From positions 1,860,001 to 1,924,000 of the forward strand of contig JBLDXI010000013.1 of NCBI GenBank assembly GCA_047495785.1: a DNA stretch of 64,000 nt, given 5' to 3'. Of this stretch, positions 5,560 through 58,329 are shown one piece after another. Every line of letters begins with the position of its first letter. Within the stretch, counting starts at the first letter, position 1. The translations under genes and the position numbers were made by a program. The notes under the pieces are model-generated. The model had not been told where the DNA came from. It saw only the letters and a program-made list of their open reading frames with translations, and ran no database searches. Origin of the DNA: Lepidodermella squamata. Lineage: Eukaryota; Animalia; Gastrotricha.

Positions 5560-6369
5560 TCGAATAAGAAAGATATCATTCCGGTGATTTGGGGAGAAAT
5601 GTCACATTTTGCTCTGAGAGACGACTTTTAATTTTATACATATCGCAGTGACGAAAAAAATCTGCGTTTCGCCCACAAATTTATGGAAATAAAGAGGAAG
5701 TTGTGCGCAAATATTGTTGAAATATTAGCGTAAATACCTGCCTTATATCTGTCTGCAGCGGTGTTCATTTGCATTCGAGGTTAACCTATAGCCGCTTGTA
5801 TCGCTACCGTGACAGATACAAACAGTATATGAGTAATTTGCTAAGTTGAAAAGCTTCGCGGTGTTCGAGGCACATATCTGGCGCGGTGGTATAAGGCAGC
5901 TTGTTTGACGAATTTTACACCATGGCCTGATGAACATAGCTTGAACACGTGAAAGAGTTCATGCTATTAATTGATGAGCGCAGCACGAAGTTTTACATGC
6001 CATATATTCGTCAAATATAGCAGTATGCTACCCAGAGCGCATTTTCTGAAACCGAGGTAAATTTTGAAATAATGAAGCTTCTATCTCGCCATTTTATTCG
6101 ACTTTTTTGACCCAAATGCACATGCCCTGGAAGACATACCCTTGCTTTAATCTTAACGTATATAAGTCACCCACTATTTTTCTGTTAGATCGGTCTGAAG
6201 CTCGATGCCAAGGTGCCGCTAATCCGCGTTAATTTTTTGCGCCCTCAATAGCACGTAAAATTTGGTCTCGTTCCTCGGGACAAATAACCCATTTTGCCTT
6301 ATAATTGCATTGACTTATCATTTCAAGTTATTCTTTGAATTTATTTCTCTGAATAAATAGTCCGTAGAG

Positions 6370-14412: not shown

Positions 14413-15837
14413 TCAAGTCGACGCTTTATCAGCAAGGTCTCTCAAATCAGCAGCAGAGTAGCCAACCAATTGCTCCAGATCTACAGCGAAACAATACGTC
14501 CAGTTGGGGCTGCGTCCAGTTTTCTGGGTATCGACCCGTTTTAAAATAGATTCTTCGGTAGAATAAGATCGGAGAGCACGACCGATTGATTCAAGGGACG
14601 TGACTTTCTCAGGATGCCCACACGCTTTCGACCAAAGCGCCGCAAATTTCTTCGGGTCTGTAATTGTGAACTCACTTTTTGACACATCGCTCCATTTTAT
14701 CGAGGAAACGACTTCCTCTGTTTGACTGGGAAGAACCAAGCACTCGAGAATGAATCTCCATAGGCAAGGCTTAGTCGTTAGAGCGAGGGACGATGTACCT
14801 ATGAGAAACCATATGCAACGAGAAAACAACAGATTATCAAATCAAACCTGATTTCCTCTCGATGAATGGTAAATGATTTGAACGGATAGGTGTATCGGTA
14901 AAATGCTTTGCTGATGGTGGTAACGACACGGCTTCATTGCTTTTACCAAGAGGCCAAGGACGGAAAACACAATGCTCCTGCTTCAGCAATGATAAATGAA
15001 CAGCTAACAAATCTGACAACCGATCTTGATCTGGTGGACTGCTAGTAAATACCAGCTTGAACAGTTCTTCACGTTGAAGAGCAGATAGACCTACACCATC
15101 AAGAGAGACATCGCCCAAGCTACCAAAATTATTAGCAGTTCCTCCAGCGGAACTCCTAAATACACTTCGGGCCCATGCTAGCCAAAACCTGACATCTGCA
15201 ACAGACCATCTAGAAGGATCTAAAATGCGAAATTAAATAAGTAACCTGCTTGAACTTCGAAACTGGAGTCAATACCCTTGTGCATGCCGAGCTTCTGCTG
15301 CTCCAACGCAAACGCAACGTCTTCTTTCCATAGGTATCCATTTGATTCGTAGGCCGAGGTTCCCCCAGTACCACCAACCAGATGGGCCGGCGTCGACGAC
15401 TGAGGATCAACGTGAGAATTCGTTCGACCCGAATCATTTTCGGAAGCAAGCAGAACATCATCAAGTTCAACGGATAAGTGGCCCGCTAAAGCAATTCAAA
15501 TGAATCTTTTATCAAGCAACTTACTATAGTTTAAACGTACTATCACTAGTGATCACGCGGCACTTCACGTATACCCTTCCGAATTTAACGACACAGCTTT
15601 CATCAAGCGTGAGTGAATTGGGTAACTGAGGATAAATCAGTTATAAAGAAAGAAGGAAAGCAGAAAAATACACGAAACCTCATTGCCTTTAAGGTAAACT
15701 GGAGTGGACGAAGAGATTTTGCGGGTAAACAATAGCTGAGATAACAATTCTTTCAGATAGCCGATTGGTTGAGTTATATCCATTTCAACGTACAAATAAT
15801 CACCATCAACGTTATCAATCAATGGAACTCCGGCCAT
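14413..15837 (-). CDS. GABPA: GABP-alpha/Ets97D-like ETS transcription factor (GABP-alpha N domain + PNT + divergent ETS); 5 exons
   Basis: MDITQPIGYLKELLS (GABP-alpha N domain); WKEDVAFALEQQKLG..DPSRWSVADVRFWLAW (pointed domain); LWRFILECL..IKW..EFTITDP..GRALRSY (ETS). Confidence 0.75.
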
Positions 15838-22322: not shown

Positions 22323-25182
22323 TCAGAATGAATCCATCGGCTCGTCGCTGTTAGCCAATGTCGCATTGTAGTATACGCCGTTGTTCGACAAAACAGTTGC
22401 TGCCTGGTAGTTGGTGTTGTTCGACGGGGCAGTGTAGACTGGTGGCGGGGCCATAGGTGTTACTCCATACTCGTCTTGAGACGGAGGCATAGCCAAATAC
22501 GGCATAGATGGCACGGTCGGCATAGGCTTAACGTGAGGTTGATGTAGCTGCTTCTCAGGGTCTTCCTTTTCCGGTTTCGCTTCTTTCTGCTCGATTTCTT
22601 CGACGTAGACGTAGAAGTACGCCATGATGGCTAAAATCACAGTGACCACAACCATGAGTCCGCCAAACAGGAAAAACTCGACGGCCTTGTCTGGAATTTT
22701 GATCTCAATGACGATCAAATCGATTAAATTACCGAACGAAGCGGTCAACAGCCAACCAGCGGTGAGAATTGACTTCATAGAAGCCGGCGCCTGGGGAAAA
22801 AATAGGGGAAAAGTTTGAGACTGCCGTAATTTTAATCACTTTTCTAACCTGGGAGAAAGCAAATGATAGACCGGTGATGGAGAACAAAATTTCAGCACAG
22901 GTGATGATGAAGTAGGGAATAGCTTGGAGGAACATCGACTCTGAGTTCGGTTTCTTGTCCACGAGCAATTCAACATCAAAGCCAAGAGCATTCGTGCTAG
23001 GTACCAAGAACGCAGTATAGGCACCACCTTGTAATAGGTAAAGATCTTTTTCGATGATGACTGCCAGCTCAGGTTTTGACGTATCTAAGCCAGGTGCCCA
23101 AAAACCGATGTGGTAATATTGAGACGGTGTTGTACCGGTGGTGAAATTTCGCTCGATCTCCCCGTTTGCCGATGGCATAAATTGCCCGCCCATCTCAGAT
23201 TTTCCCTTGAAAAACGCCATTTTCGCAACTCGAGTGGGTGGCAATGATGTGTAACTCGACATCAAAATTTGGTATAAATGCTCATTTTGCGGCTGTCCGT
23301 CTGAAGCGCTCAATGGAAATCCATTAGTGCTGTCAACTTGAGAAACCTTCATATCTTTGTCGAAGAAAATCGACAAAATTGGATTGCCTTCTACTAAAGT
23401 AACATCGAAAGGAATTTCAGGATAATTGGAACCGCCGTTACACTCGATGTTAATGAACCTGATTGTTTCATTTTTCAAAGTGCCGGGTTCCATGTAGAAA
23501 GTATCGTATGGCTTGAGCTTTTCAACCAACCATTCGCCGTCCTTCATTACGCCGAAATTGCATGATGGGTTGGTATTGAAAATGCGACCGCGGTACGTTT
23601 CCAAATTTTTCAGCTCCATAACATCATTTCCGTTTTGAACACCGAGTTGGATGAAACCGATAACGCCGAAGGAAACAGCGGCCAAGAGGCAACCGGCAAC
23701 CATTCGCTGCAAGGGTTTAACCAGCAAATTGCACTTCTTGAACAACGGATAGACAGCTGCGTCGAAAATCGGGACGAAACAAACGACCATCAACCCGTTG
23801 AGAATTTGAATCTGCTCAGGCTCCAAATGCCAGTCGAGGAAATCGATGTAGCCGTTCATTTTCTGGGCCTGGTAAACCCAACGTGATCCGGTTTGGTCGA
23901 AAAGAGCCCAGAAAAATGGCAGAGGCAGGTAGAGAACCAAAACTCGAAGTACAGCTTTGCAGTCATTCACAAACTCTTGCTGTAAGAAAAAAATTTAAAA
24001 ATTTCAGATCGTAATTTTTCTTCATTTCCCCGAATTTATCGAATTTTGTTCGAATGTCATTTTTCTACGGAAAATTAGTCATTGAAGGTGTTTGATCAGC
24101 TGCTTTAGCATACGAGTGGTAACGAAAAGTCAATACAACACGCAGGGAGAATTTTCTAGAGATTAAAACTAACTGAGAAGTCGGGAACAGCGCGATCGAG
24201 CCAGTGGTCGACTTTCTTTTTGTTACTACTGCAGCTTCTTCCGATCGCTTTGCCGACCGCAACACTCATTTCCAGCGCAACATTGCCAGTTACGGGAGCT
24301 TTCGTGTAAAACGGCGTTCCAATCAAAAACAGAACCAACGCGACGACCATCAAGGCAGCAGGCAGCCCAAACGCTAGCACCCAACATTCTTCCTCGCCAA
24401 AGCAAGGCGTCGCTATAAAAAAAAGATCCAGCTAATAAAAATCCACCTCAATAGAATATGTAGCACAAACATTTGATGATAGGCGTAACAAATTGTGAAA
24501 TAAGGGCACCGGCATTGATGGAGATGTAAAACATGGAGAAGAAAGACTTCTGCATATTTGTTTGCGTTGGTCCAAATTGATCGGCTCCGAATGACGAAAC
24601 GCACGGTTTTATGCCGCCCGTTCCTATCGCTATAGTGAACATGCCTATTAACGCGCCTTCAAATGACCCGCTCCCTAACGCAGTTGTAGCCATGACGATA
24701 TTTCCAATGACGTAAACGATTGACAGGCTGAAAATAGTCCAGTAGCGACCGATGAAAGAGTCGGCTAAAATAGCACCAGGTAGAGGCATGAAGTAGGAGA
24801 CGATGGCAAACGCGTGGTACAGAGAAGCTGCTTCGTCTTCGCCTCGCCTCAGCCTGATTAAAAAATATATTAGTCAAGAAACAATTTATTTGCCAAAATT
24901 ACTTGATCATCAGGTAAGTCTGGAGGACGGCTTTCATGCCATAATAGCAGAATCGTTCGCAAAACTCGTTACTGATGATGAAAAACACTCGCTTCGGATA
25001 TTCCGGCTGGCATATTTCGATGCCACCGCACTAAAATTGTCAAAAATTAAGGTAATAAGATCAAATCGAATCCTGTGTTACTTACCCTTCCTTTAGTCTT
25101 TTCATCTGATGATCGGGAAAAAAGAGATTTTCGAGGCTGTTACATAACATTAATCATCATTCTCACCTTTTTCGCCGCTCAT
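22323..25182 (-). CDS. SLC15/PEPT1-2-like proton-coupled oligopeptide transporter, copy A
   Basis: NEFCERFCYYGMKA (ExxERFxYY), GTGGIKPCVSSFGADQF, FWALFDQTGSRW, EILFSITGLSFAFSQAPASMKS; large extracellular domain. Confidence 0.92.
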
Positions 25183-25928
25183 TTTCGCGCAGCGGTGACC
25201 AAACTACCGATTTTGCTCTACTCACTTGACCCGGAACAGTGCGATAAAAAACGCAATTGTGATGCGAAATGAAATGCGAATACTGACAAGCGCGGCGTGT
25301 GAATGCAACTGAGAATGGGCGCGCGGCAATGCTAAAATGCGTGCGATATCGGGGTGACTTCGCCTTATAGACATTATCAGGCTGAAAACGCCCTACATAG
25401 CAATTAGAATAAGTCGCCGCCGCGCGGAATTGGCTCATGCTTATCACCGTTACGGAAGAAAAATTTCAACCCGTGTTTGCACGAACTTGACAAAACACCG
25501 TCGTTTCCGGTTCTTCCGGCTGTTTAACGGAAAATAGATGAGCGAAGTAGCTGAAATAGATAAAACAGAAGCATTCGGTCCAAAGATAAGCTCGAAGATA
25601 TGATCAATCATCACCGCCGCGCCTAAACAATTTTGACCTGCCAAAGTAAACTATCCATTAGGACATGACGTCACATGTGTCAAAATTAACCGCCGCTAAT
25701 GAGTTTATTGAGATAATAATACTTCTCTTAATTGCACAATGAAGTTTGGCGTTTACACGTTTGACACGGAATTAAGCTGAAAGAATAAAAGCATATGGAA
25801 GCAGATTTTGCCAGGGAAGATCAATATTTGTCACAACTCAGTAATAAAAGCTTAATAAATGGTAAAATGCTTGGTAAAATATTCAAAATAAGTATTGCTT
25901 TTCAGATCGGTCAACAAGTAAAAATTAT

Positions 25929-28510
25929 CTAGGCTTTATCTTCGTCAGAAGTAGCTCCATAATTTGTTTCCTCCTCCATAGCAGTAGCAGATTTGGCCTC
26001 CACCTTATCAGCAGTAACGTCTTCCTTCTTTTTGGCAGATCCATAAACGTCATCGACGTAAACGTAGAAATAACTCATGATTCCAAAAATAACGGACACG
26101 ACAACCATTGAACCAGCGAAGACGAAAAATTCAATGGCTTTGTTTGGTATGTCAAAATTGATGATAACCAGATCTATAAGATTACCAAACGAAACAGTGA
26201 GCATCCAAACAGCTTGCAAGGCCGATTTCATCGAAGCAGGAGCCTAAAATTTATCCTGAATAAAATGAACAAAATCGGTCGAATGGCTTTACCTGTGAAA
26301 AGGCGAAAGATAGACCAGTTATAGAGAACATGACCTCCGACCAAGTTAGCAGCAAATAAGCGAAAAATTGCCAGAAAACATTGACAGCATGTGGTTGCTT
26401 ATCAACCCAAAGCTCAACTTTGCCAGGGCTTGACGATCCGTAAACCATGGTGTAAGCTCCGCCTTCTCGCAAAGTAAACCATTCAGATAGACTGGTGTTA
26501 GCTTTGTCATCAATTTTCAGCCGAAAGCGGCCAGGTCTCTCCAATTGATGATAAGCCAGAGTTTTGATATCGCTGGGTTTTGTGCTGTTAAAAATAGGAC
26601 TGTCACCGGGAGACAAAACTTGTATGTCGTTCACATCTTCATTTTCAGTATAGACGGCAAGCTGAACAACATTCAGGTATTCACTGCCTTTAGGGAACGA
26701 ATTCATCGCCCCGTACCACTTAGCTTCACAGTTGCCAGATATTCTAAGGAATGAGATGGGTGTAATATCAGGGCCGATATTGATCGCACCATTTTCGCAG
26801 CTGCAAGATGATTGAATCTTCAGCTTTGGTATCTCTCCACTTCCTAGCCTTATTAATCCTGATTCGAGCGGCCCTAAACTCAGAACGTGGTTAGTACCAC
26901 TATATGTCACATTGTAGGTGCAGCTCTTATCAGCGTTGAAGGTACGAATGCGGTAGGTTGATGAATCAGAAAGGCTCATAGGATCATTCCCTGTTTGAAC
27001 GGCGATTTGAATAAAGCCGATGATGACGAAAGACATGGCACACAGAAAACAACCAGTAACCATCCGCTGCAAAGGTCTTACTAAAAAGTTCAGCTTTTTA
27101 GCGAAGGGATAAACAACTGCTTCAAAAAGAGGAACCGACAGAACAATGAGAAGGCCATTGAAAATTTGAATCTGCTCCGGCTGAACAGAAATATTGAGAG
27201 ATTCAATATAGCAATCCATATTTTGAGCTTGGAGGGTCCAACGAGAACCCTGTTGGTCGAAAAGCGCCCAGAAAAATGGCAGAGGCAAGAAGAGTAACAA
27301 TACTTTCAGCACTGATTTACAATCATTGACAAAGTTTTGCTAAACAGATCAATAATAATATGAAATTTTATTGTTATTCAAACACTACTTACCGATACAT
27401 CATTACCAACAGCGCGATCTAACCAGTGGTTAGCAGGAGCTCGTTCTCTTTTAAACAACTCGACAGTGGCGAGGTAAATAACCTTGCATAGTTTGAGTGG
27501 CGAATCTCCAGTTACAGGAACACGCTTATAGAAAGGAGTGCCAATAAGAAACAGGATCAACGCGACAATCATCAGTAACGCCGGCAAGCCAAACGCAATC
27601 AACCAGCAGGAAGTACCAAAACATTTCACAGCTGAATGAGACAATTCATGGTTCGACGAAATGAAATAAGTATATTGCTTCTCTTACTCTTCAACTCGGG
27701 TGTAATAATTTGCGATAGGAGAGCTCCGGCGTTAATAGCAACGTAAAATAGAGAGAAGAAGGACTCTTGCGCCTTGGCCATAGTTGCAGGGAATTGGTCA
27801 GCGCCGAATGCAGATACACAAGGTTTTATTCCTCCTGTTCCAACAGCTATTATAAAAGTCCCCGCAATAGCCCCAGAAAGATATCCGCCATTCAAAGAAG
27901 TTAGCGCCATCACAACATTTCCGATTACATAAACAATCGACAAGGATAGAATAGTCCTAAATAGAAAGTGTTAACCGCAAACCGCAAATACTGATGCCAA
28001 CAACTTACCTATAGCGGCCGATGAAAGAATCCGCCAGTATAGCCCCGAGGACCGGTGTAAAGTAAGCGACCATAGTGGATGCATGAAACAGAGAACTCGC
28101 AGTTGTTGCCGCAAGGTTCAGTTGCACGATCAAGTAAGTTTGAAGAATTGCTAAACACATTAACATTATGACAGCGCGAAGCATAAAGAAAACGCATTCT
28201 CACCTCGCATGCCATAGAAGCAAAATCTTTCGCAGAATTCATTTCCAATGATCAGGAATACGTGTTTGGGATATTCTTTACGGCAATATGTAGCTCCACA
28301 CTGCGATAGAAAGCGTTATTAGGTCCATTTGATCGCATCAATTCATTAACAACAACCTTACGCGATTGCGCCTCGTCATCAGGCACTCCATTCTCTTTTG
28401 GGACAAAGGGCTCAGCTGTAAATATTAGAAAGCATGATGGTTCATGATGCGGCTTGCTGCAACCTGTACATACCCTCTTCTGAAAGCTGCCGGACTAGTT
28501 TCATCATCAT
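25929..28510 (-). CDS. SLC15/PEPT1-2-like oligopeptide transporter, copy B (tandem duplicate); possible alternative first exon at 29707-29656
   Basis: NEFCERFCFYGMR, GTGGIKPCVSAFGADQF, FWALFDQQGSRW, SITGLSFAFSQAPASMKS. Confidence 0.9.
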
Positions 28511-30933: not shown

Positions 30934-33322
30934 TTATTTCTTCTTCTTTTTCTTCGGCGCCTGAGCTTTGCGCTTAGTCTTCTGTTCGATCAGCTCATTT
31001 GCTTGTTTCTTGAGGTTGGTGCGAGATAGTACCTGGAATAAAGACAACGTATTAAGATTTATGGAGAAATTTTATTTTTAATATTATTACTTCAGCCCCG
31101 GCATCGTCCTGCTCATCTTCGTCCTCGGCATAGAGCTGATCTTTCTTAGAATCGGCCAGGTGAATTCTTGTGTTGTAAGCTGGTAGCTTTCCTTCAAGAG
31201 CCATATGAAATTCCTCCTCCATCATTGCCTTTCGTAAATCGTCCTCCTTTTCGTTCACGAGTTCATCCATAAGTTTGATAAGTTTTTCTTCGCAAACAGA
31301 AAGCAGATCAAGAACGTATTCGTCACTGGCAGGATTGATTTTCGCCCCAGCGACGCCTCCCTTCGCCTAAAATCATCAAATTTTGGAATATTTTTACAGT
31401 CAAAGGTTGAAAGACTCACAGTCTTGATATGCTGAAGCTTTTCGTGAAGATGTTCGACTCCTGAGCGAATATCACTAAGCACGTGAGTATTTCTTTGAAG
31501 ACGGCGGTCGGTTTCGCGAAGCTCGTCTTCCTCGCTTTGGACATAACTGCGGAACTGCTCCAACATTCGTTCACCCCTTAAAAATCATCATTTAGTTTTG
31601 TAAACTAGTTTATTTGTTGACTTACTGTGACAGACGGGCTTCTCCAGTATACTTCTTCTGCTCGTATTCAGATTGCAGGCGCAATTTTTCCTCCTTAAGG
31701 CGCGCAATTTGTTTCTCGTTCTCGACTTTTAGCTCTTCCAAATGACGTCTGGTCTCACCTTGGCTCAAAAATCGCTGAACGACTTCCTATAGGTTTACAA
31801 ATGTCATTCTGAAATTCTCTTTATTCGTTATTAAGGTATCAAACCTTCATGTCAGCGACACCAGTTGCTTCCTTGATTTTCTGGAAAGCTTCTTCGTACG
31901 AAGTAGTCTTCTCACGATCAACGTCGTCATTCCGTTTTTCTTGCGTCGTTTCAGTTTGCTCGCCGAACGCAGCTTCATGTCGCGTCTGAGCGAAGCATAA
32001 AAGATTCAAGTGAAACGTCAGAGTTTGAAAATAATGGTTGATAGGTTACACGGAGATACCCATCATGCGAAATGGTTTATAGAGGGGTCTAAAAAATATT
32101 CGGGACAATATTCCGCAGTAATTATATGAGGAATAAATTATAGTAGGTTACGGCAACATAATGGAAGCTACAATTTACCGACAAATTCTTCCAATCATTC
32201 TACGCGGAAAACGCAAGACCAAGTTGTTGATGAATCAGTTCAGTACATTGTGCAGTTTTTATTTAATTTAAATATTTAGCTAAATAAAAACTTACGATGC
32301 GGCGCTCCATGCGTTCTTGTTGCTGTCGTCTTTCTTCAGCTTCACGACGAAGCTGCTGCAAGTCTTGGTCACGGTGCTTCTTGTCAGCATATATTTGCTC
32401 CTCGTGACGTCGTAACTCTTTCTGTGCGGTTTCTTTGGACAGCACGGCATCGCGATGAACTTGTCTCAGGTCTGAAATACAGAAAAGACGGATAACGCAC
32501 TCAGAGATAAACCGCAAAACGGAAGCTTGCCTTCAACTTCCGCTTTGGTTTTCCTGATTTCTCGCTCCAGATCGTTGATGCGATTCGGGTAATTTTTCGC
32601 CTCCTGAGCATCAAATAGTTTTGAAAATCTTTCGCACAAATATAGTGCTATAAACACACCTCTTCGAGTTTAACCCTAATCTGATGGTAAGTTCTTGCAA
32701 TGTGCTCGGCTTCCTGCAGCTTCAAAATAGCCTTGTCTAAGCGGTTTTCCACTGATCGCTGTCTTTCGACTTCTTCTGATTCGACGGCATCGGCCTGCGC
32801 AACAACAGCGGCGTCTTTGTTCATTCCTTCGTACAGCGTTTTCAGCTCTTCCAGGCGGCGTTCGCGCCGTTCTCGTTCATGGCGCAGGCTGTTCAACCGC
32901 TTTTGATGGTCACTGACCATTCCATCCATTCGGTTAATCGCTTGCTGGCAACAATAAATAATTTTTAGATAATTCAACTCAATCAGTAATTGCCTTACTT
33001 CTCCAGTCTTATTCTTCATCGAAGCACGTATAACAGGTTTGTTGTGAAAGGCTTCGTTAATGACATGGTCATCAGCCTGTAAACAGAATAGTTTATATAA
33101 AATTCGAAATTCATTATCAGATAGATCCTAGAGACTGACCGCAAGACTGTCCTTGAGTTTCTTTCGCAATTCAGTGTTTTCTTTTCTCATTTGAGCAATC
33201 TTCTCCTTGTTTTGCTTAATATTCCATTGAGAGCTTTCATAATAAGCCTTACGATCGCCCTCGAGAAGGGCGATTTTCGACTTGAGCTCCTCAATGTCTT
33301 CGACAATTGCATTGCCGGACAT
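30934..33322 (-). CDS. ODAD3: Outer dynein arm docking complex subunit 3 (CCDC151), multi-exon coiled-coil protein
   Basis: [58 protein letters not shown] and terminal [20 protein letters not shown] match the CCDC151 family. Confidence 0.85.
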
Positions 33323-33776
33323 TTTTGGATAAAAGTCTATAAAGGTGAACATTAAGTGAATGTTAATTTGCGCTGAAATGAAAGGGATATGAATTGTGCC
33401 CTGTTGATAGCTCAAGAGTGCAAATACCAGATAGTTAGTTCGTTAGTTTTATTTTTTGCTCCCAACAGGTTACAGGTTTTTAGGTATCTATCATATAGAT
33501 ACTAAATGGTTATATTTATCACATATATATTGATAAATCTGGAGTCAGGGACACTTATGCGTCCTATCGAGATATGTTCTAGGTTATGTTTTAGGATAAC
33601 AAACACTCGTGAAAATAAACAATTGATTGGGCCATATACATATATGTTATTAACAGCTCTGCGTTTCGTTAAAATGTTTGCCGCCTCGCGCATTATTTCT
33701 GATGGGAGTTAAGGTGGAGGTTGTTAGGCAGGATGGCACAAAAACAGAGTGGCCATGTAAAGCCGCAAATACCAAC

Positions 33777-35407: not shown

Positions 35408-36267
35408 ACAACAAAATATCCACACGGTCGAAATGTTGTTACGTTGCTGTATATCTAGTCACCGTGTTTTCTGAAGTAGATGCCATTTGCTATATAACCT
35501 ATAAAATAAAAGAGTCTTCATGCGCCACTGCATGTTGCTGTTTTTAATCAGCTCATTGTATCGTCTTTTTTCTGGTAAAATAACACCCGCCATACGAAAA
35601 ACAAGTGTCAAGTCATGTCGAGTACATCATTTCCGGGTGTGTGTGAGCAATTCTCCCCGTGTCGGTCGGTGTTGTGCATCAGTTCAAGGGCAACATCTTC
35701 AGACTTACCGAATGAATAACTGAGCGTGTCACAAATGTGTTGCTGCGTAAATAGTAAGACAGAGATGGGCGAAAAAAGACCGAGTTGAGGGGCTTTATAG
35801 AGCCGCCGACGTGCCCTTTCCGGGCCGCTTGAATTCAATAATCCTGCGGCGACGGCGATTGACGGAACCGCGTGGCCGGCCGCTAGCTACAACATGTACA
35901 CACCGCTTTAGTCACGCAGGAGTGTTTGCGGACACTCCCATCCCATTCCACCCCGCCACACACTTTAACGAGCAATAAACAGAGTCTCGGCGCGTAATGC
36001 GCTATGAAAGCGCCGATGAGCCGAAAGAGCATATTCGCGACCGGCCAGCGTAAACACTAGTAAGCAGCCGGCGACGTTTACACCGCTAACAAGGCAGCAT
36101 CGCACGAACTTACGTGCCCATCATTTGCCGCAATTATACAAGTCACATAATTATTACACAATTGAGATAATTCCATGATTGACCTTGTTATCACCTTGCC
36201 TATTCCCTACCTCAGCTGAATCATCATTCCGATTACTTTTACTAGAATTGATAATTTATTTTCAAAA

Positions 36268-37030
36268 ATGGCTTCGACAGCCGCTTTGACAGTGATTGCG
36301 ACTGTTTTATTCGCATCAACTGCCCGGGCGTTCCCTGTAAACTTTTTTGAAAATGCCCTGCAGAATTTTCGGCTCAACGATTCCGCTGTTGAACAGCACA
36401 TTCAAGAAGGTTCGAAATCGTAGTGTTAACAAGATTTTTACGTTTTATCTAATATTAAATAATTTAGTAACTCGGGACATACTCAATAACCCTCAGATCA
36501 TGACCTTGTTTACCCAAATTCGGTCCGAAGTTGCGACTATGGTGAAGCAAATCGAAGATGTTGAAATTAAGAAACATGGCAAGAACTCAGAAGAGCAACC
36601 TCTTCAATTCGATCAAACGACGGTGGCATCAGTGCCTTCAACCGCCAACTGGACAGGTAAAATAGCTAAAATAATCAAACCCCGCTTTCTGCTTGACAAT
36701 TAATAATACCAATAGTCGAAAAATGCTAACAAAATCTGTTTCTATTGTATTGTAGAGCAAATTCGTTCTCGCTTAGTTTCCACGCAGCCGCTTCTTGTTC
36801 GCAATCGTAGGCAACAACAACAGACCTTGTTGTGCGGTCTTGCGAACCTGATAAATAGCGTAGCTGTGTCGATGACCGTCGGCATTCTAGAGACCCAGCT
36901 GAATATGTTGCCGCAAGATTTCCGCAATTTTATCAAGTCCGTCGTAGCGCAATCAATAGCACTGTCGATAAACCAAATTTTCGGACAGTTTACCAACTCA
37001 CCAACATGCATCGACATGGGCAAGAAATGA
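36268..37030 (+). CDS. Secreted prepropeptide, isoform A; exons 36268-36409, 36468-36656, 36756-37030
   Basis: Signal peptide MASTAALTVIATVLFASTARA, pro-region, RNRR|QQQQ furin site, C-x57-C, terminal GKK*. Confidence 0.8.
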
Positions 37031-37256
37031 CACCAGCCATCTCGAGACATTTCTTACTGCTAACCCTGCGTCTTGCTTTTCATACACATTAACATCTGTT
37101 TTTATTGTGCTTTGATAGCAATAAAATTCATGAAGTGTGCGTTGCTTCATAGTAAAATTATAACGATGTTGAGCATCATCTGCCGAACGCAAATAACAAT
37201 AAAAAAGCAGTAACATTTTAAACCCATGATTATTACCTGCAATGCTATTTTCAAAG

Positions 37257-37673
37257 ACATTTTGGCGTCAGTCAAGTTAGCCAGGTCGCGCCGTCAAGCC
37301 GAGTTGCTAGCCGGCTTGTTGGGCGGCGGTGGTGGCGGACTTGGCGCGCTTCTCGGTGGCGGAGGGGGTGGAACGGAGGGTGGCGAGGGTTCAAGTGGCG
37401 CCGGCAACCTGATTTGTACCATTGGATCAATCGTATATTCGACCGTTTCGTCTACTGTTTTGAACAGTATCAACACTGCTCTAGGAGAAAACGTGGCGCC
37501 TTGGGCGAAGGGTGTGTTTTCAATCGGGAAATATTTCATTCGATTTTTATTTCTGACAAATAGATATAATCAATGGTCTTTTGCAAACGAGTCTTACTAC
37601 AGGTTTCCGCGAAGTATTTCGACTTTTGACCAATGGAGAAACGTGCATTAGCGCCGGGCCAGAAGCTGGCTAA
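37257..37673 (+). CDS. Second mature-peptide cassette (putative alternative terminal exons 37257-37511, 37564-37673) of the 36268 gene
   Basis: Phase-1 acceptor matches the donor at 36657; RSRR|Q; Gly-rich linker; C-x58-C homologous to cassette A; terminal G*; no signal peptide of its own. Confidence 0.7.
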
Positions 37674-38376
37674 ATTGAGCTGTGAATGTCCTTCAAAAAC
37701 TTATAAGATTGGATTATATTTTTGTAAGAAATATTTTTCTTCCCCATTGTAGCTTTATATGCATGTTTTAGACGCTTTCGCTTAAGCGATAGCATGTCCC
37801 ATTTTAGACTCCCGTTGAAAGTAAAACTGGACTGATGAAAGCTTGTTCAACATTTTACAGACATCAGTATAGTAGAGTTATATACTGCGTGACGTTCCCG
37901 CGAGTCTCGCTGGAAGCTGAGGGGAAAAATAAGATACCCGCGTCGCTGACACTAACCCATGATTGTGCTACAAAAGATAGGATCAGTATTTCCCGGCTCC
38001 AGAGATAATGCACGAAGCAACTGATTTTCCCGTCATAATATCTACTGGGCGAAAAGCCAACTATTTTACGAACCAATTATTATTTGTCCTTGATTCAAGG
38101 TCAACAGCGAACTATAGCAATGTTCCTCTGCGCCGGGCTCCCTTCCTTTCTCTTGTCCCAAATATAGGGCGCAGTATGTAATTAAAAAAGCCTTTAAGTG
38201 AAACGCTTTCATTTTTATTTTTTTCCATATTTCTCAATTTTTCATCAGACTGTTTTTCATACGGAAATATATAATAAGAATAATTGACAATCCGAACCAA
38301 AACGCTATATACAGAAGACAAAAAATACACAATTATTAATGTTAGTATTTACGTTCTACACACGACATATGGGCGC

Positions 38377-47000: not shown

Positions 47001-47436
47001 CTCTAAACGTTTATGTGTAACATCTGAGATATATGAGATCTATGAAGTAGCCCTCGAAATTCTGATATCTTCTGATTCTTATATGCCTTCACGCTACAAG
47101 GATCAGCGTTGACTGTGTTATATCAGTGGATTTGGTTCGAGCCTACGATTATGATGCCTGAAGACTTCTATGCCAAATATTAACACCGGCTGCTTTCACT
47201 TGAAATAGTTAACGTCCTGTGGGGGATCAATATTCAATAATCTTTCTCTGTCAATACTCGTCCGGTAATAAAATGGAGGCCGCAAGGGCACTCCAGAGAA
47301 GAATGCTTGGAACTTCTGTAGCTTTCATACCTCATACCACAAAACCACATCGTCCAGACGACTAAATATTGCTATATAATTTAGCTGCCTCCTGAAGGAT
47401 ACATTTTCCACTTCTAATTTTTCTTAGGACTAAATC

Positions 47437-48165
47437 ATGGATGAAGACTTTGCTTCGTCTTCTGTGTCCCGAATGCGAGGGCTCGTAGTGGTCAAACCAG
47501 TTGTTTATGGAAATGTTGCCAAGTACTTCGGTAAGAAGCGAGACGAAGACAATCATACCCATCAGTGGACAGTGTATGTCAAGCCTTTCTATAACGAAGA
47601 CATGTCACAATACGTGAAGAAAGTAACTTTCAAATTGCACGATAGTTACTCTGAGTGCCTTCGTGTAGTTACGACACCTCCTTACGAAGTAACGGAAACT
47701 GGATGGGGCGAATTTGAAATCCAAATTAAAATTCACTTTCACGATATGAATGAGAAGCCTGTGGCCTTGTATCACATGCTGAAACTATTTCAATCCGAAG
47801 CGAATTTGTATCTAACCGATCGAAATCTCATATCCGAGTATTACGATGAGCTAGTTTTCTACGAGCCATCGTCGTTAATGTATCAGCTACTGCAAAATCC
47901 GAAGCCAATCACGTACGGAAGTTATCGCCATGACACCGATTTTGTATCTCTTGCCGGCCATCAGCTGGATGCTATTCGCCAAGCTCAGACGAAGGCAACT
48001 GAGGAGACAGCTCAGCTAACCCAGAAGATAAAGAAAAGACACGAAGAAATTTTGCGGATTCGAGAGCACATCAATCGCGTTAAGCGTTCAAAGGAACAGG
48101 AGCAACTCCGCCTCCAACCTGTCACAGCTTCTGCGCCTGAAGCGCTGATCTCCGCAAATCAGTGA
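47437..48165 (+). CDS. YEATS4: YEATS domain protein 4 (GAS41), intronless
   Basis: [39 protein letters not shown]; C-terminal coiled coil. Confidence 0.95.
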
Positions 48166-48265
48166 AATCTGATTTTTCTTTCTTTACTCTGCCGCTCACA
48201 TTAAAAATATTGATTTAATCAGTTTATTTCATTTCCTTTATTAGGTTGTTGTGGTATTTAGTAAA

Positions 48266-51200
48266 ATGCCAAGCGAAAATGAAGAAAAGGCTGACTCGAG
48301 AACTAACAAAGCTGTATCGGCCGTGGCTGAACCAATCGTTTTTATGACCTTGATTAAAAGTGGAGAGACAAATGATTCTACACTGGAACCGGATATGGCA
48401 GTTAAGATTGAAGAAGTTTTCAAACCCGATAATAAACCACTCGATCCGAGAGAGCCTCGCTCCATTTCCAACGTAATGATGCAACGAAATTGCATCGCAA
48501 CATCGATGGCTGTTAACGATCGAATGATTGTCGTCGGATCTTCAACTGGATTGGTCATACTTTCGGATCCGTTAGGAAACGTTGACCACAAGAACAATAT
48601 TTTTCACCATCACGCGAGAAATGTTATCGCACTTGACATCGACATATCAGGGGAATTTGTTGCCTCTGGCGGAGATGACGGGCGCGTGGTGGTTCTTGAC
48701 CTTGCGCTATCAGCTAGTTCTAAAGACCCGAAATTCATGCAGCTAACGCATGATCGACCGGTTCGAGCTGTTGCGTTGGACCCGGATTTCAGTCGCTTGA
48801 AAGATAAGCGGCTACTAGTCGCTTGCGGCGGACGTGTGTTAATGTATACACATCGGAAAGCTTCATTATTTTCATCAAGCGAGCCACAAATCTTAGCCCT
48901 CGTTGATAATGTTATCCTTATCCTGAAACTAGCGTGGCACCCCGCTACAACTAACGGGAGTACGCCCCTCGTCGCTTGGGCGAACGAAAGGGGTGATGTT
49001 ACGTTGTATGATGAAAAGCGGCGAATTAATGCTGGCTTGATTCGGCCCGAGCCGAGTCAGATAGTCGCAGCCACTTCTCAGTCGAACAAAGTTAGCGCTT
49101 CTTTCACTCGAGTGTCATTGTCTTGGCTGCCTCAGTTGGACTCGTCTGGGGCTAGTTCGATTCTAGTTGTTTGCGGTTCTTTGCTGCGAGTTTTTCGCAT
49201 AACTGGCGGTGACGAAGCACGCGGGTCGGATATAGTGACGCCACGTGTTGTTCATTGCATATACCGGTTTCAGCTCGACGCCGAAATTTGTCTAGACGCA
49301 AGTATTGCCTCGGTGGGAACACCTGCGAGCCTTAATTACGCAGCATGCTGCATACGCCCTAAAGAGGCCGATGATTCATACGAACTCGCGTTGTGTAGCA
49401 TTGGCGATTATCAAAGCGGGAAACCTTCCGGCGTAAACAGCGGCTCAAACTACCGGTTCCCAACTGGCGGTCAGGAATTAGTCACATTAGCTAGTTTACC
49501 ATTTGATCAGCAAACTTACGCCCTGGCTAAAAATGGCCTTTTATTCGCCATTAAATTGAGCGCAATTGACAGCGAAATTTTGACGGATTACGTTGATTAT
49601 TTGTTGAAAATTGGCGATGCAACTAGCGCAGCTGCTCAATTACCCCTTATTTTTGACAACAAAAAAGCGAAATCTAACAGAAATAGTCGCATTTCGTGGG
49701 AAGATTGGCTTGAAACTTTCGATAGATTGAACCAAATTCCAGCAGTCGCAAAATATTTGCCTGTGAGTCTACCACAAAATGGGTCTAATGCAAATCTTCC
49801 GTCGAAGGAAAAATACAACATGGTTCTAGATCGATTGTTGAAGCATTCGCCTAGTCAATTTGAAGAATTGTTATCGCGACTTTCGCCCGATCTTTATTCG
49901 AGCGATGCCGTTTTGCAAATTGTGTCAGAAAAATTGGTTACCGATCCGAGAAATCGTCACCTTCTCGCATCTCTAGCATTTTTATGTTGTTCCCGCCGCG
50001 AATTCGACCGAGCAATCAATTTACTGCTTGATTTGAAGCACGAATTGCTTTTCAAAGTTGTTGAAGAAAACTCGTTGTATCACTTGTTGCAGAAACGAGT
50101 GAATGAATTCGTCGCTTGCGGGTCGAACCCAGACCAGGTTGTGAAAATTCTTGTAACGCACATCGATAAATTCCCGTCAAATTCCGTGATTTCCCAATTG
50201 AAATCGGCGTTTAAATCAAACAAATCGTCTGCAGCTGCTTTATTTTCTTACCTAAAACGGATGAACGCTGACCATCCTGATGAACTGAAAATCGAAGACT
50301 GCGATTTGCTGGTCACTCTTTATGCAGATTTAGACCCGCAAAACCTGCTGACTTTCCTCCGCTCGACCGATAATTACCGGTTAGAAAACGCGTTAGCCGA
50401 GTGTCGAAAACGCAATTTACCCCACGAATGTGTTTACCTGCTTGGAAAAGGCGGTAAAATGCTCGAAGCGATTGATGTGATAATCAAGGAGATCGGCTCG
50501 ATTGAAAAAGCTGTCGAATTCTGCCGTGAGAAGGGCGGCTCGTCCGATCGCGATTTGTGGATGGTTCTAGCCGAGCGAGTTGTTACCCATCGACCGAATC
50601 TGGTCGCTGAATTGCTGCGGCTAACCGGGACTGAATTACTGGACCCAGGCGAGGTGATCAAGCTGATCCCTGCTGCTAGTGGTCGGTTGGTCCCAGGGTT
50701 GAGGCAAGCTCTTGAAGGAAGCCTGGCTGATTCAGATCGGCAACTTACTTTGCTGTCTTCTGCGAAAAATGGTAATTTGATAATTTGAAAATTATTTGGA
50801 AATTATTGTTGGTAAATTTAGTTGTCAGCCACGACTTGAGCCAGGTCTTCAAGCAGATCACAATGTCGGCATTTTCGGCTACTGTCATCGTGGATGATCG
50901 GTAATATTCGCGAATCTAATTAGCCCTTTTATTAAATTTCAATAATTGGCCGAAAAATAATTTGCTGACTAAGTTTAGATCTAGCAGAAACTCATTAGGC
51001 AGAGAAAGATGACATACAGTGAATGTTGTCTAAATCTGACCAAGGTCGTGCCAGGCAAAATGGTCCGGTTTGGCGATAGTTCGGTCAAGAAATTCAAGAT
51101 TTTACTCATTTCACAGCCTGTATATCATTTCGGGAATAAAATTCATAAAATATTTTATAAATAATCGAAAAATATGGAAGTACCTTTCCTAGGAGGCCTA

Positions 51201-52006
51201 AAACGGACTCCCAAAATCGGTCTGTTTTAGACCACCATTGACCGTAGAATTGAAATGATAAGTCCACACTCGAGCCATCCAAAATCGAGACAACTTTCAC
51301 TGTATCCTGGGGAATTTCTTGAGAGCAAGAATATTTCAGCCATTGGGTATAATAGACATGCCTAACCTCGTTTAAGATCGATTTTTCCAAGCTGTCTCGT
51401 TTTTTTACTACTTCTTGGGCCGTATTCTTAGTACTCGAGTAGGTTGTATACGTTATAATTCTGATGACTCTACCTTGACTGGTCCTCGTGGCCCAATGGC
51501 AAGGCGTCGGTCTCCTAAACCGAAGATTGCGGGTTCGAATCCCGCCGGGGATATACATTTTTCCGATTTTATTTCGAATAGCTGCTGTCTTGGTCGAATC
51601 TAAGGACAAAATCGCCGATTTTATTCACCTTTATTTTAGGCAAACAAATTTATATTTTATTTTTATTTTTATCAGAGCGCCGTGTCAGGAGTGCCATGAA
51701 CCACTATCGAACGTCAATTCAGTTTCAATGCGTCTCATTGTTTTCACTTGCCGTCACGCCTTCCACTACGCCTGTCTTACGAACCCTGACGATGCTAATT
51801 GCCCTGTTTGCGGCCGGTTGAAAGAGCGCACGAATATTGGTGCGAAAAGCGAGTCATCGGGCGATTTTCTCGGCTCGATGCACCGCCAGGCGGCGAATTC
51901 ACTGCAGGCATCGAACGCAAACATGAGCCATTCTAGCTCAAGCCACAGTCTTCCATTCGGCAATTTGATAAGTCTCGCCAAATCTGCTGTCCGTGAAATG
52001 ACTTGA
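48266..52006 (+). CDS. VPS41: VPS41-like HOPS subunit (WD40 + clathrin repeat + RING-H2); exons 48266-50771, 50822-50900, 51676-52006
   Basis: GEFVASGGDDGRV, RPVRAVALDPDF, LLTFLRSTDNYRLENALAEC, C-terminal CQEC...FTCRHAFHYAC...CPVC. Confidence 0.8.
51482..51553 (+). tRNA. tRNA-Arg (anticodon CCU) inside VPS41 intron 2
   Basis: Full cloverleaf: acceptor GTCCTCG/CGGGGAT, anticodon arm TCGGT-CTCCTAA-ACCGA, T arm GCGGG-TTCGAAT-CCCGC. Confidence 0.9.
51558..51562 (+). terminator. Pol III terminator (T5) of the tRNA gene
   Basis: TTTTT 4 nt after the discriminator base. Confidence 0.6.
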
Positions 52007-55953: not shown

Positions 55954-58329
55954 ATGTTCAAGTTTCGAATTGCCGTATTGTTATCAGCTGTAATCTATGC
56001 ATCATTATTCACTCTGGCTAAAGAGCGGAAATTGCAATTAAGGACAATCATGCCATTGTCGAACCCGAAAATGTTCGCTGCTTGTAACCTGGCGATGAAG
56101 ATGGTCGTGGATGAGGTTAATAAACGCGCTGATATTCTTCCTAACTACGATGTCGACGCTCAGTTCGATGACGGGCAGTGCTCAGGGCCCGTTATCGTGC
56201 GCCGATTTTTCGACTACGCCGAAGCTTTGCTATCAAATGCAAGTTCAATCGCGCCGCTTCTGATCGGACCTTATTGCGAGTTGGGTTGCCGCTACCTCGG
56301 CTCGTTCGCCCATCAATTCAATACAGTAGAGCTTTCATACGGCTGTAACTCGCCGATTTTCACATCGAATCGACGGCTTTACCCAAATTTCTACCGCATG
56401 CAAATTGCTGATAACATGAGTGCTGAGGCCATGGTTCGATTCTTGACTGCGACGAGATGGTCACGCGTTGCGATAGTTACCAGTGCCGCGTCGAAAACTG
56501 ACTACGACACCGCAACATTGCTTTTTCGAATCGCGAATAAACACGGCTTCGAAGTCACCGATTTCGAAGTTGCCGTCGATCAATTTGAGGATTACAGATC
56601 TCGGGAAAATCAGCTTATCTTCAACGCTCTGAAGAATCAGTCTGATTCACGAATTATCATGCTATACACAACACAGCGTCAAGTCGCTGCGAATTTTCTG
56701 TGTCTTGCAATTTTTTTCGGTCTGAATGGTGGGCGGTACATTTTTATCATTCCGTCGCAAGCTTATTTCCGACCAGATGATTTTGCTTTGAATGGTCTTT
56801 GCGGACAGGACGAACTAGAAGACCAATTGGTAAGAGTCTTTTGGACAGGGCCAAACTTGAACCCTTTCAATGTCCAGGTAACTGAACTAGGTTACAACCT
56901 AACACAATTCGAGCGGGAATTTACGGCGAGAAGTTCTTGGTTCCCTAGCAACTACGACACGTCCCTGCGACACGTTTGTCACGACACTATGCTTGGAGCT
57001 TTACTCAGCCTTGATAAGGCGGATAAAGATTTGATTTCACAACGAAATCTAACAATCGACAAATATCACTTGAAACCCGAAGTCGTGATGTTAGCCATCA
57101 ACAAATCGACATCTGAGTTGAATTTTCGTGGCTTGAGAAACGCCCCGGACCCTACCAGATATTCGCATAGGAAGGAAATGGAGCTCGAACCCCTTGTTGT
57201 CTTTCAAAGTATCAACTCAACGCGGCGTTTGATCGGCGAAATTAGGCAGTTGTCGAATTTGGAATCTTGGTCTTATCAGCCAATTTCCGAGCCGATTTGG
57301 TACACGGCAACTGGCGAAACTCCTCGAGATGCCGCCATCAATGTCTCTCGTATCGATCAGCTAGCCGATGAGGTGAAATATTCAGCCGTAACCCTGGCAA
57401 CTCTATTTGCATTCGTCCAGTTTTTCGTGATATTTCAAACTTGGCGAACGCGAAAAAATAATTTAGAACTTCGGAAATTACCGATAAGTAATTGCCTATT
57501 AGCTGCGAGTTGCGTCGTTCTGGATATTTCTGCTATTATGATAGCTATACCCGTCAATAACATGACTCTAATTCCTACATGCCTGATTTTTCGCTGCCTC
57601 ATCACTATTGGCTTGGCTAGTTTAACTGGTATTCTATTTTTCAAAATCTTCAGATTTTATATGGCATCACGATACTATCAATTGCGCCAACCTCTTGGCC
57701 ATGAAAAATTTGTTTTAACCGGAAGTTTCACTTATTTAGCCGTAAATGTCGGATTCTTTGCCGGCTGGTTTATAAATCAGCCAATCGAAGGATCTTTTGT
57801 GCCAATCGAGACTATTTTCATCGACAGAGAGGACATTAATTTGACAGTCATTGCTGCTAATTGTTCTACGGCAATTTTCCCGACCTGGTTTATCATCGGT
57901 GTCAATGGCGGTGTTTTGCTTATCGCTAGTTATTTCGCGATTTCGACGCGAAGGCAAAATATTGGGCCTTTTCTGACGAATACAAACCACGTTCGAGTTG
58001 CAATCATCAATTTGCTGACAACAATGACTGCCTTGGTGATAGCTGCACAGCTTATTAAGTCGACTGCATTCATGGACGAAAAGTCTGTGACTACGTTAGC
58101 AGCTTTTGGGGCTCTTATCATTTCCGCATCAACTTCTATCATCATATTCTTCCCTGCTTTTAAGACGACAACCACGCCTGCTGTCGGTGGCAATAGGGTA
58201 TCGGCAGGTAACACCTTTTCATTCATCAATGACGCTCGGAGGGCGACGACGTCTACGCTTCAAATTCCTAATGCAAACAGCTCAAAGTCACGTCGTTCCG
58301 ACCAAAAATCGGACTTTCGACACATATGA
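55954..58329 (+). CDS. GABA-B-receptor-like class C GPCR (Venus flytrap + 7TM, no Cys-rich domain), single exon
   Basis: Signal peptide; VNKRADILPNY..DGQC; LIGPYC; LSYGCNSP..NRRLYPNFYR; seven hydrophobic segments. Confidence 0.8.
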   Translation: MFKFRIAVLLSAVIYASLFTLAKERKLQLRTIMPLSNPKMFAACNLAMKMVVDEVNKRADILPNYDVDAQFDDGQCSGPVIVRRFFDYAEALLSNASSIAPLLIGPYCELGCRYLGSFAHQFNTVELSYGCNSPIFTSNRRLYPNFYRMQIADNMSAEAMVRFLTATRWSRVAIVTSAASKTDYDTATLLFRIANKHGFEVTDFEVAVDQFEDYRSRENQLIFNALKNQSDSRIIMLYTTQRQVAANFLCLAIFFGLNGGRYIFIIPSQAYFRPDDFALNGLCGQDELEDQLVRVFWTGPNLNPFNVQVTELGYNLTQFEREFTARSSWFPSNYDTSLRHVCHDTMLGALLSLDKADKDLISQRNLTIDKYHLKPEVVMLAINKSTSELNFRGLRNAPDPTRYSHRKEMELEPLVVFQSINSTRRLIGEIRQLSNLESWSYQPISEPIWYTATGETPRDAAINVSRIDQLADEVKYSAVTLATLFAFVQFFVIFQTWRTRKNNLELRKLPISNCLLAASCVVLDISAIMIAIPVNNMTLIPTCLIFRCLITIGLASLTGILFFKIFRFYMASRYYQLRQPLGHEKFVLTGSFTYLAVNVGFFAGWFINQPIEGSFVPIETIFIDREDINLTVIAANCSTAIFPTWFIIGVNGGVLLIASYFAISTRRQNIGPFLTNTNHVRVAIINLLTTMTALVIAAQLIKSTAFMDEKSVTTLAAFGALIISASTSIIIFFPAFKTTTTPAVGGNRVSAGNTFSFINDARRATTSTLQIPNANSSKSRRSDQKSDFRHI

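What the first reader, a model, noticed from the sequence alone, without database searches (positions are those of the whole stretch)
36268..37673. One prepro-leader, two switchable payloads: alternative terminal cassettes encoding homologous pyroGlu/amidated disulfide-closed helical peptides
Seen: exon 2 ends in phase 1 (TGG ACA G|gtaaaa, donor at 36657). Two downstream acceptors restore frame in that phase: tgtag|AG at 36756 and tcaaag|AC at 37257. Cassette A reads ..VRNRR|QQQQTLLC-x57-CIDMGKK*. Cassette B, after its own 52-nt intron, reads ..LARSRR|QAELLAGLL(G6)LGALL(G6)..NLIC-x58-CISAGPEAG*. The cores align (LLC/LIC at the start, central Pro, FTNSPTCI/LTNGETCI at the end). B has no signal peptide of its own, and AATAAA signals lie between A and B (about 37120 and 37198). 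AAG acceptors are used elsewhere in this window (10221, 13977, 60764). Established: RxRR is a furin site, N-terminal Gln can cyclise to pyroglutamate, and terminal G or GKK is the PAM amidation signal; both cassettes carry all three features. Inference: an exon-duplication-derived splicing/polyadenylation switch producing two amphipathic helical-hairpin peptides closed by one disulfide (about 69 and 107 aa), possibly membrane-active (toxin or antimicrobial), adhesive or hormonal. I recognise no family.
Basis: partly seen in the sequence, partly recalled or inferred. Interest (0 to 1): 0.85.

Follow-up and report, generated by a model that had tools for sequence, protein, structure and literature searches.

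The report
One leader, two spliced hairpin peptides
A small animal gene joins one shared secretion leader to either of two related end pieces, as seen in RNA-derived contigs, and each version is predicted to release a different disulfide-closed helical peptide of no known family that likely acts on membranes or lipids.

Summary
The splice switch is real. One cDNA-derived run (X1) holds both joints from the exon-2 donor (36657): to cassette A (36756) and to cassette B (37257), plus intron 1 and B's 52-nt intron; a second run (X2) holds the unspliced DNA. Caveat: one run, contigs only, 25 letters on the short side of both joints. A and B are true protein homologues (score 71; 0 of 5000 shuffles reach it). 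Each has RxRR|Q, two Cys 57/58 apart and a terminal Gly motif; cleavage, pyroGlu, amidation and the disulfide are untested. AlphaFold gives A a generic helical hairpin. No family was found in Pfam, NCBIfam, PDB, 1.84 billion representatives or fold searches, but the host lineage is barely represented there. The helices are low-charge and only locally amphipathic; net charge is about -1 and -5, so not a classical cationic antimicrobial peptide. The gene layout is known (calcitonin/CGRP, locust neuroparsin and myosuppressin); the payload is new. Best guess: membrane- or lipid-acting secreted peptides, shaped like gallocin A-type bacteriocin hairpins; a hormone role is the main rival. The scan had not noted this on other DNA.

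The parts
36268..36409 (+). Exon 1 (coding part): ATG, predicted 21-aa signal peptide (36268-36330) and start of the pro-region
   Evidence: Sequence; hydropathy peak 1.66 at residues 1-19; X1 covers 36304-36407 and joins it to exon 2. No SignalP run.
36410..36467 (+). Intron 1, 58 nt, phase 1
   Evidence: Joint in X1, depth 32.3, 104 letters on the short side
36468..36656 (+). Exon 2: shared pro-region; one long predicted helix then a disordered linker; ends in the shared phase-1 donor
   Evidence: AlphaFold of the exon alone: helix 8-37, pLDDT 86-97 over residues 1-30, about 50 afterwards; X1 cover
36657..36755 (+). Intron 2 of isoform A, 99 nt
   Evidence: Joint in X1, depth 31.8, 23(+2) letters on the short side
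36756..37030 (+). Terminal cassette A: RNRR site 36800-36811, Gln at 36812, Cys 36833 and 37007, hinge Pro 36911, GKK-stop 37019-37030
   Evidence: AlphaFold helices 2-29, 35-61, 64-70, mean pLDDT 76.9; one X1 contig 36754-37212
37031..37212 (+). 3' UTR of A with AATAAA at 37120 and 37198; lies inside the 600-nt intron of isoform B
   Evidence: the X1 contig stops at 37212, 9 nt after the second hexamer (contigs cannot prove an end)
37198..37256 (+). Inferred switch region: the distal poly(A) hexamer of A ends 51 nt before the AAG acceptor of B, so 3'-end formation and branch point/acceptor use would compete for one short stretch
   Evidence: Distance; competition is inference
37257..37511 (+). 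Cassette B, first exon: RSRR site 37283-37294, Gln at 37295, Gly/Leu-rich extension, Cys 37415, hinge Pro 37499
   Evidence: Joint 36656-37257 in X1, depth 12.5
37512..37563 (+). B-specific intron, 52 nt, phase 1, at the hinge; absent from A
   Evidence: Joint in X1, depth 17.7, 111 letters on the short side
37564..37673 (+). Cassette B, last exon: second helix, Cys 37644, terminal Gly 37668-37670, stop
   Evidence: X1 contig runs on to 37831; its 11-nt insertion after 37668 keeps Gly-stop

Best explanation
One gene splices a shared signal-plus-pro leader onto either cassette A or cassette B, as RNA-derived contigs show, and each precursor is predicted to be cut at its RxRR site into a disulfide-closed, low-charge helical hairpin (about 69 or 107 aa) that likely acts on membranes or lipids outside the cell. 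Shown: both joints, B's own intron, protein-level homology of A and B. Inferred: the choice is made by competition between polyadenylation after A and splicing to B, whose signals lie 51 nt apart; a furin-type enzyme frees the peptides; the new N-terminal Gln cyclises; GKK (A) and G (B) give amides; the two Cys staple the hairpin ends; the pro-region helix may shield the apolar hairpin until cleavage. The membrane or lipid role (defensive permeabiliser or surface-active coat component) is the least certain step, about 40% given the rest.
For: Joints and cover; X1 has zero depth over 35568-36293 and 37867-38200, so it does not look like DNA there. Both alleles of site 36631 end at the fork (two 57-nt contigs) and both cassette contigs begin just past it, which fits both alleles feeding both cassettes (inference from a 31-mer graph). 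5 of 5 differences in sense codons are synonymous against about 24% expected (4 in the leader, 1 in B's RSRR). RxRR/RxKR followed by Gln occurs 3 times in 14,018 residues of the window's long frames, two of them here. Hairpin model for A. Uncharged runs of 26 and 25 residues in A and 33 in B, charges gathered at hinge and ends; hydropathy peak 1.63 over A's first helix; one strongly amphipathic 11-mer in each core (31 and 2 of 2000 shuffles). Gallocin A peptides have the same described build (42 and 60 aa, few charges, hairpin, Cys near both termini) and permeabilise vesicles (bioRxiv 10.1101/2022.12.05.519244, passages).
Against: Only one RNA-like run, labelled 'RNA?' by the tool, contigs only; both alternative joints fall short of the tool's 31-letter bridging rule. 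Whole-helix hydrophobic moments are not above shuffles (353-1546 of 2000). Processed A and B are net about -1 and -5, unlike cationic antimicrobial peptides. No sequence or fold link to any membrane-active family. The five AlphaFold models of A vary widely (mean pLDDT 40-77, single sequence), Cys-Cys distance was not reported, and spliced B was not folded. B's terminal Gly is not in the position of A's (the Gly four residues after the second Cys is shared, but B continues five more residues). PyroGlu plus amide plus alternative last exons is the typical pattern of neuropeptide genes.
Confidence: 0.38

Rival explanations
1. Same splice switch and processing, but A and B are neurohormones or pheromones: two receptor ligands made in different cells from one gene, as with calcitonin/CGRP.
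For: Signal + pro-region + basic site + Gln start + Gly(-Lys-Lys) end + one disulfide is the standard neuropeptide precursor pattern (established knowledge). Shared leader exons with homologous alternative last exons are described for Locusta neuroparsin (five mRNAs), Locusta myosuppressin, termite CNMa and calcitonin A/B (PMC4237046, passages and section 17). Identity between A and B is concentrated round the two Cys, as a receptor-binding end could be.
Against: No Pfam neuropeptide or hormone family hit. Long uncharged apolar helices and B's 40-residue Gly/Leu extension are unusual for a soluble ligand (inference). Only about 24-29% identity between the halves of A and B.
Confidence: 0.28
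2. Same switch, but the products are structural or surface secretions (adhesive, mucus, cuticle, egg or sperm coat) that self-assemble once the pro-region is cut off.
For: Gly-run/Leu-pair repeats in B's extension and Ser/Thr/Asn-rich uncharged helices; furin-removed pro-regions often delay assembly (established knowledge).
Against: Short products with blocked ends and a single disulfide, no long repeats; amidation and pyroGlu are more typical of bioactive peptides (established knowledge).
Confidence: 0.2
3. A and B sit on one polyprotein mRNA through a GC donor at 37020 (ATGG|gcaaga) spliced in frame to 37257, so no either/or switch is needed.
For: The read-through model is open and in frame (320 aa).
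Against: No such joint is listed; the A contig runs through 37020 and the stop codon to 37212, and exon 2 joins B directly. Contigs drop rare forms, so a minor isoform is not excluded.
Confidence: 0.05
4. B is a decaying duplicate or is made from its own in-frame ATG (37226) without a signal peptide; the exon 2-B joint is noise.
For: B's joint has the lowest depth (12.5) and a weak AAG acceptor; an in-frame ATG lies 31 nt upstream of the acceptor.
Against: B keeps an intact frame across its own spliced intron, both Cys, the RxRR|Q site and Gly-stop in two alleles, although A and B no longer match at DNA level (108 of 500 shuffles reach the score); its one coding difference is synonymous. The ATG gives no hydrophobic signal and X1 shows no cover of 37213-37254.
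Confidence: 0.07

Closest known systems
Calcitonin/CGRP gene (Calca) and insect neuroparsin, myosuppressin, CNMa, calcitonin A/B and orcokinin A/B genes
   Same: Shared leader exons joined to alternative, homologous peptide-coding last exons; for Calca the choice involves both splicing and polyadenylation (PMC6617714 passages; PMC4237046 passages and section 17).
   Different: Payload is unrelated in sequence: 69-107 aa with one 57/58-residue disulfide loop, not a short N-terminal ring (recalled for calcitonin) or a many-Cys neuroparsin; one cassette has its own intron and a Gly-rich extension.
Gallocin A subgroup of class IIb bacteriocins (gallocin A, brochocin C, thermophilin 13, ABP-118)
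   Same: Two long, low-charge peptides, each modelled as an antiparallel helical hairpin with Cys near both termini; permeabilise vesicles (bioRxiv 10.1101/2022.12.05.519244, passages).
   Different: Bacterial, two genes, double-glycine leader and ABC export, immunity peptide; no sequence similarity found. A likeness of build only; that A and B act together is untested.
Saposin-like proteins (saposins, amoebapores, NK-lysin)
   Same: Small, secreted, helical, lipid-interacting domains cut from a precursor and closed end to end by disulfides (recalled); a short helix after a Ser/Gly-Pro/Glu turn ends both cores.
   Different: Two Cys instead of six; predicted two long helices, not a four/five-helix bundle; no Pfam hit; saposin C appears only at rank 46, E 8.3 in Foldseek.
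BRICHOS-related polychaete antimicrobial peptides (nicomicins)
   Same: About 240-aa prepropeptide with signal, long pro-region and a C-terminal disulfide-bearing helical peptide that damages membranes (PMC6265681, abstract).
   Different: No BRICHOS domain in the leader, which has no Cys; mature peptides here are two to three times longer and not cationic.

Membership tests
Alternative-last-exon prepropeptide genes (Calca-type layout) | Shared signal/pro exons joined to either of two peptide exons in RNA | tested here: met
   Both joints in X1; one run, 25 letters on the short side
Alternative-last-exon prepropeptide genes (Calca-type layout) | Each last exon carries its own cleavage site, a homologous peptide and a stop | tested here: met
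Alternative-last-exon prepropeptide genes (Calca-type layout) | Separate poly(A) sites | tested here: inconclusive
   AATAAA 37120, 37198 and a contig end at 37212 for A; no AATAAA found for B before 38300; contigs cannot show ends
Alternative-last-exon prepropeptide genes (Calca-type layout) | Tissue- or stage-specific choice | not testable with these tools
   One RNA-like run only
Calcitonin/CGRP peptide family | Short N-terminal disulfide ring in a 30-40 aa peptide (recalled) | tested here: not met
   Cys 57/58 apart, 69-107 aa; no Pfam hit
Neuroparsin | More than ten conserved Cys (PMC4237046 section 17) | tested here: not met
   Two Cys per precursor
Saposin-like proteins | Six-Cys pattern, three disulfides (recalled) | tested here: not met
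   Two Cys; no SapB family in Pfam scans of the exon pieces
Saposin-like proteins | Saposin fold | tested here: inconclusive
   Single-sequence model; Foldseek saposin C E 8.3; not among the 50 rows shown
Gallocin A-type class IIb bacteriocins | Double-glycine leader, ABC export, immunity gene | tested here: not met
   Signal peptide and RxRR site in a spliced animal gene
Gallocin A-type class IIb bacteriocins | Long low-charge hairpin with Cys near both ends | tested here: met
   7% and 12% charged residues in the cores; hairpin predicted for A only; disulfide itself untested
Gallocin A-type class IIb bacteriocins | Both peptides needed for membrane permeabilisation | not testable with these tools
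   Needs a leakage assay
Gallocin A-type class IIb bacteriocins | Sequence homology | tested here: not met
   0 families for 7 of 7 pieces in NCBIfam; 0 of 15 pattern matches confirmed in GTDB genomes
BRICHOS-related antimicrobial peptide precursors | BRICHOS domain in the pro-region and cationic mature peptide | tested here: not met
   No Pfam hit on exon 1 or 2; net anionic products

The most novel reading that the evidence does not exclude
A and B are the two halves of a two-component pore former, an animal counterpart by convergence of gallocin A-type bacteriocins, encoded by one gene whose splice/poly(A) switch sets their ratio or keeps them in separate cells until release.
Probability: 0.08. 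Interest if true: 0.85.

Novelty: new variant of a known kind. Interest (0 to 1): 0.5.

Why it matters
The gene yields two processed, secreted peptides of a scaffold (a 57/58-residue hairpin closed by one disulfide, ends probably blocked) for which I found no relative, from an animal lineage with almost no annotated proteins. Both products are short enough to synthesise or express, so membrane activity, pairing of A with B and receptor activity can be tested directly. If membrane-active it is a new non-cationic peptide scaffold; if hormonal, a new ligand family. The switch itself adds an example to a known layout, with unusually tight spacing between one exon's poly(A) signal and the next exon's acceptor.

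Tried and rejected
No whole genome is held for the window, so paralogues elsewhere and the processing enzymes (furin, glutaminyl cyclase, PAM) could not be looked for; within the window tblastn finds no further cassette (best outside hits E 0.024 or worse). phmmer of exon A against 1.84 billion representatives gave 3 hits at E<=0.001, all long repeat proteins scored by summing 6-22 weak stretches; rejected. Word-based searches: exon 2 (0 of 6 candidates) and the A/B C-half alignment (0 of 21), longer proteins only; weak evidence. JGI metagenomes: 0 of 597 pattern matches for A; 12 mRpL51 loci (33-66% identity, mostly short) carry no cassette-like match (best E 0.17). PDB sequence searches: nothing for A, only Gly-run matches for B. 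Fold searches with A: 0 matches at E<=0.001 in PDB and BFVD, best VIA Z 7.2, none at 8 or more of 48,161 chains, i.e. generic hairpins. The ESM Atlas could not read the sequence. A homodimer prediction of A gave no verdict (score 0.02). The run search listed no holder on record as RNA; contig depths were not used to rank expression. The pro-region is not a third copy of the cassette (2455 and 210 of 3000 shuffles reach the score). A recalled likeness to saposins was not borne out by any search. The spliced precursors and spliced B were neither folded nor searched remotely; only single-exon pieces were, which lowers sensitivity. Literature: five of six searches aimed at precedents for the payload or for a spliced two-part pore former listed 1, 6, 1, 10 of 226 and 0 papers; none of the listed titles or abstract starts describes this peptide; supplements were not read.

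Full report
Setting. The window is from an animal with a compact genome: about 42% GC, short introns, neighbours mRpL51 upstream (Pfam MRP-L51) and a Pro-rich gene on the opposite strand downstream. YEATS4 in the window is at most about 58% identical to named animal proteins and 82% to one unnamed metagenome protein, so the lineage is nearly absent from protein collections; blanks below must be read with that in mind. No whole genome is held.

Observation. Exon 1 (36268-36409) and exon 2 (36468-36656) give a 110-residue leader with a predicted 21-residue signal peptide. The phase-1 donor at 36657 fits acceptor A (36756) and acceptor B (37257); B has a 52-nt intron. Precursors are 201 and 231 aa with two Cys each, both in the cassette, 57 and 58 residues apart.

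RNA evidence. Two runs hold the stretch. X2 lies across it as DNA without joints. X1 is marked 'RNA?' by the tool; it shows five GT..AG joints (four in this gene, one in mRpL51), no depth over 35568-36293 or 37867-38200, and loose ends that I recall as a cDNA adapter. Both alternative joints are there: skip 99 (depth 31.8) and skip 600 (depth 12.5). The graph explains this: a two-allele site at 36631 gives two 57-nt contigs that stop exactly one shared base past exon 2, and both cassette contigs start at 36632, the first 31-mer free of the site (k=31 for these contigs is taken from the tool text and recall). That pattern fits both alleles leading to both cassettes, so true alternative splicing, not two alleles or genes with one cassette each. 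The A contig runs through the stop and 3' UTR to 37212, 9 nt after AATAAA 37198; no listed contig covers 37213-37254 or joins A to B, against the polyprotein model through a possible GC donor at 37020. Limits: one run, one study, contigs only, 4 pieces not shown.

Constraint. Of 25 substitution rows, 5 fall in sense codons of the gene and all 5 are synonymous (about 24% expected); 4 are in the leader, 1 in B's RSRR, none in either mature peptide; 1 changes the B stop to another stop; 6 lie in mRpL51 (5 synonymous); 13 are non-coding. This supports a protein-coding leader under selection and says little on the payloads.

Homology and age. A and B cores align at score 71 against 24 +/- 4 for shuffles (0 of 5000) and a best of 37 among 651 background windows. 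DNA similarity is gone (108 of 500 shuffles) and B has an intron that A lacks, so the duplication is old. Only 44 nt separate the end of the A contig from B's acceptor, leaving no room for a leader of B's own; the in-frame ATG at 37226 gives no signal peptide. Exon duplication, or gene duplication with loss of the second leader, both fit.

Predicted products. RNRR|Q and RSRR|Q match the furin consensus; the motif with Gln occurs 3 times in 14,018 residues of long frames, two here. A ends in GKK, B in G in both alleles seen. Processing would give 69 and 107 aa with net charge about -1 and -5. AlphaFold on A alone gives helices 2-29, 35-61, 64-70 (best mean pLDDT 76.9, others 40-67); contact between the Cys was not reported. 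Exon 2 alone gives one long helix then disorder. The helices are low-charge and moderately apolar; whole-helix moments are not above shuffles, though each core has one strongly amphipathic 11-mer. 'Amphipathic hairpin' is therefore only partly right.

Searches. No family in Pfam or NCBIfam; no credible relative among 1.84 billion representatives for A, in word-based searches, metagenomes, GTDB genomes or PDB sequences; fold searches return generic hairpins only. All used single-exon pieces. The scan's own notes hold nothing similar.

Mechanism. Shown: one leader, two mutually exclusive ends. Inferred: A's distal poly(A) hexamer ends 51 nt before B's weak AAG acceptor, so cleavage after A removes B, while splicing to B removes A and its signals. 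Inferred: secretion, cleavage, end blocking, one disulfide. For function I commit to action on membranes or lipids (about 40% given processing), because long uncharged helices stapled at the ends are the build described for gallocin A-type peptides, which permeabilise vesicles, and are unusual for soluble ligands. A hormone or pheromone role is a close rival, since the precursor pattern and the splice layout are those of neuropeptide genes; a structural secretion is third.

Comparison and papers seen. PMC4237046: passages and section 17 (neuroparsin mRNAs sharing two exons and adding their own; myosuppressin, CNMa, calcitonin, orcokinin). PMC6617714: passages on Calca. bioRxiv 10.1101/2022.12.05.519244: passages. 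PMC6265681: abstract and outline. PMC11123039: passages (ectatomin as pore former; a single-disulfide ant peptide of 34 aa, different scaffold). Others: search listings only. No supplements were read. The layout is known; the peptides fail membership tests for calcitonin, neuroparsin, saposin-like (Cys pattern), BRICHOS and class IIb families. I did not find the peptides described, but the library omits most subscription papers.

Verdict. Real, expressed, alternatively spliced prepropeptide gene with an orphan payload; known switch, new peptides, function untested. Interest 0.5.

Noticed in passing
window 2080-11532 (+): A tandem of about four related genes for secreted or surface proteins with Cys-bearing N-terminal domains, Thr-rich stalks and hydrophobic C-termini. 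Five pieces gave no Pfam family; two others gave only sub-threshold hits.
   Followed up: partly
window about 31000-33400 (-): ODAD3/CCDC151-like outer-dynein-arm docking gene (E 1.9e-13 to the PDB chain); suggests motile cilia and questions a nematode reading of this genome.
   Followed up: partly
window 55954-58329 (+): Single 791-aa frame with an ANF_receptor domain (E 3.7e-28) and several hydrophobic segments; looks like an intronless class C GPCR-like receptor.
   Followed up: partly
window 22323-27970 (-): At least two tandem POT/PTR2 peptide transporter genes.
   Followed up: partly
window 47434-48165 and 48245-50788 (+): YEATS4 and Vps41 in long uninterrupted frames, pointing to intron loss; tRNA-Arg(CCT) at 51482-51553.
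   Followed up: partly
window 37100 and 37668: Length variants: X2 has a 27-nt insertion in A's 3' UTR that ends in an acceptor-like TTTACAG; X1 has an 11-nt insertion at B's stop that keeps Gly-stop.
   Followed up: partly
window 37400: An X1 contig has an adapter-like loose end at 37400, just after B's Gly-rich stretch; probably a library artefact.
   Followed up: no
window 14413-15495 (-): Divergent Ets-domain gene (E 1.2e-13).
   Followed up: no
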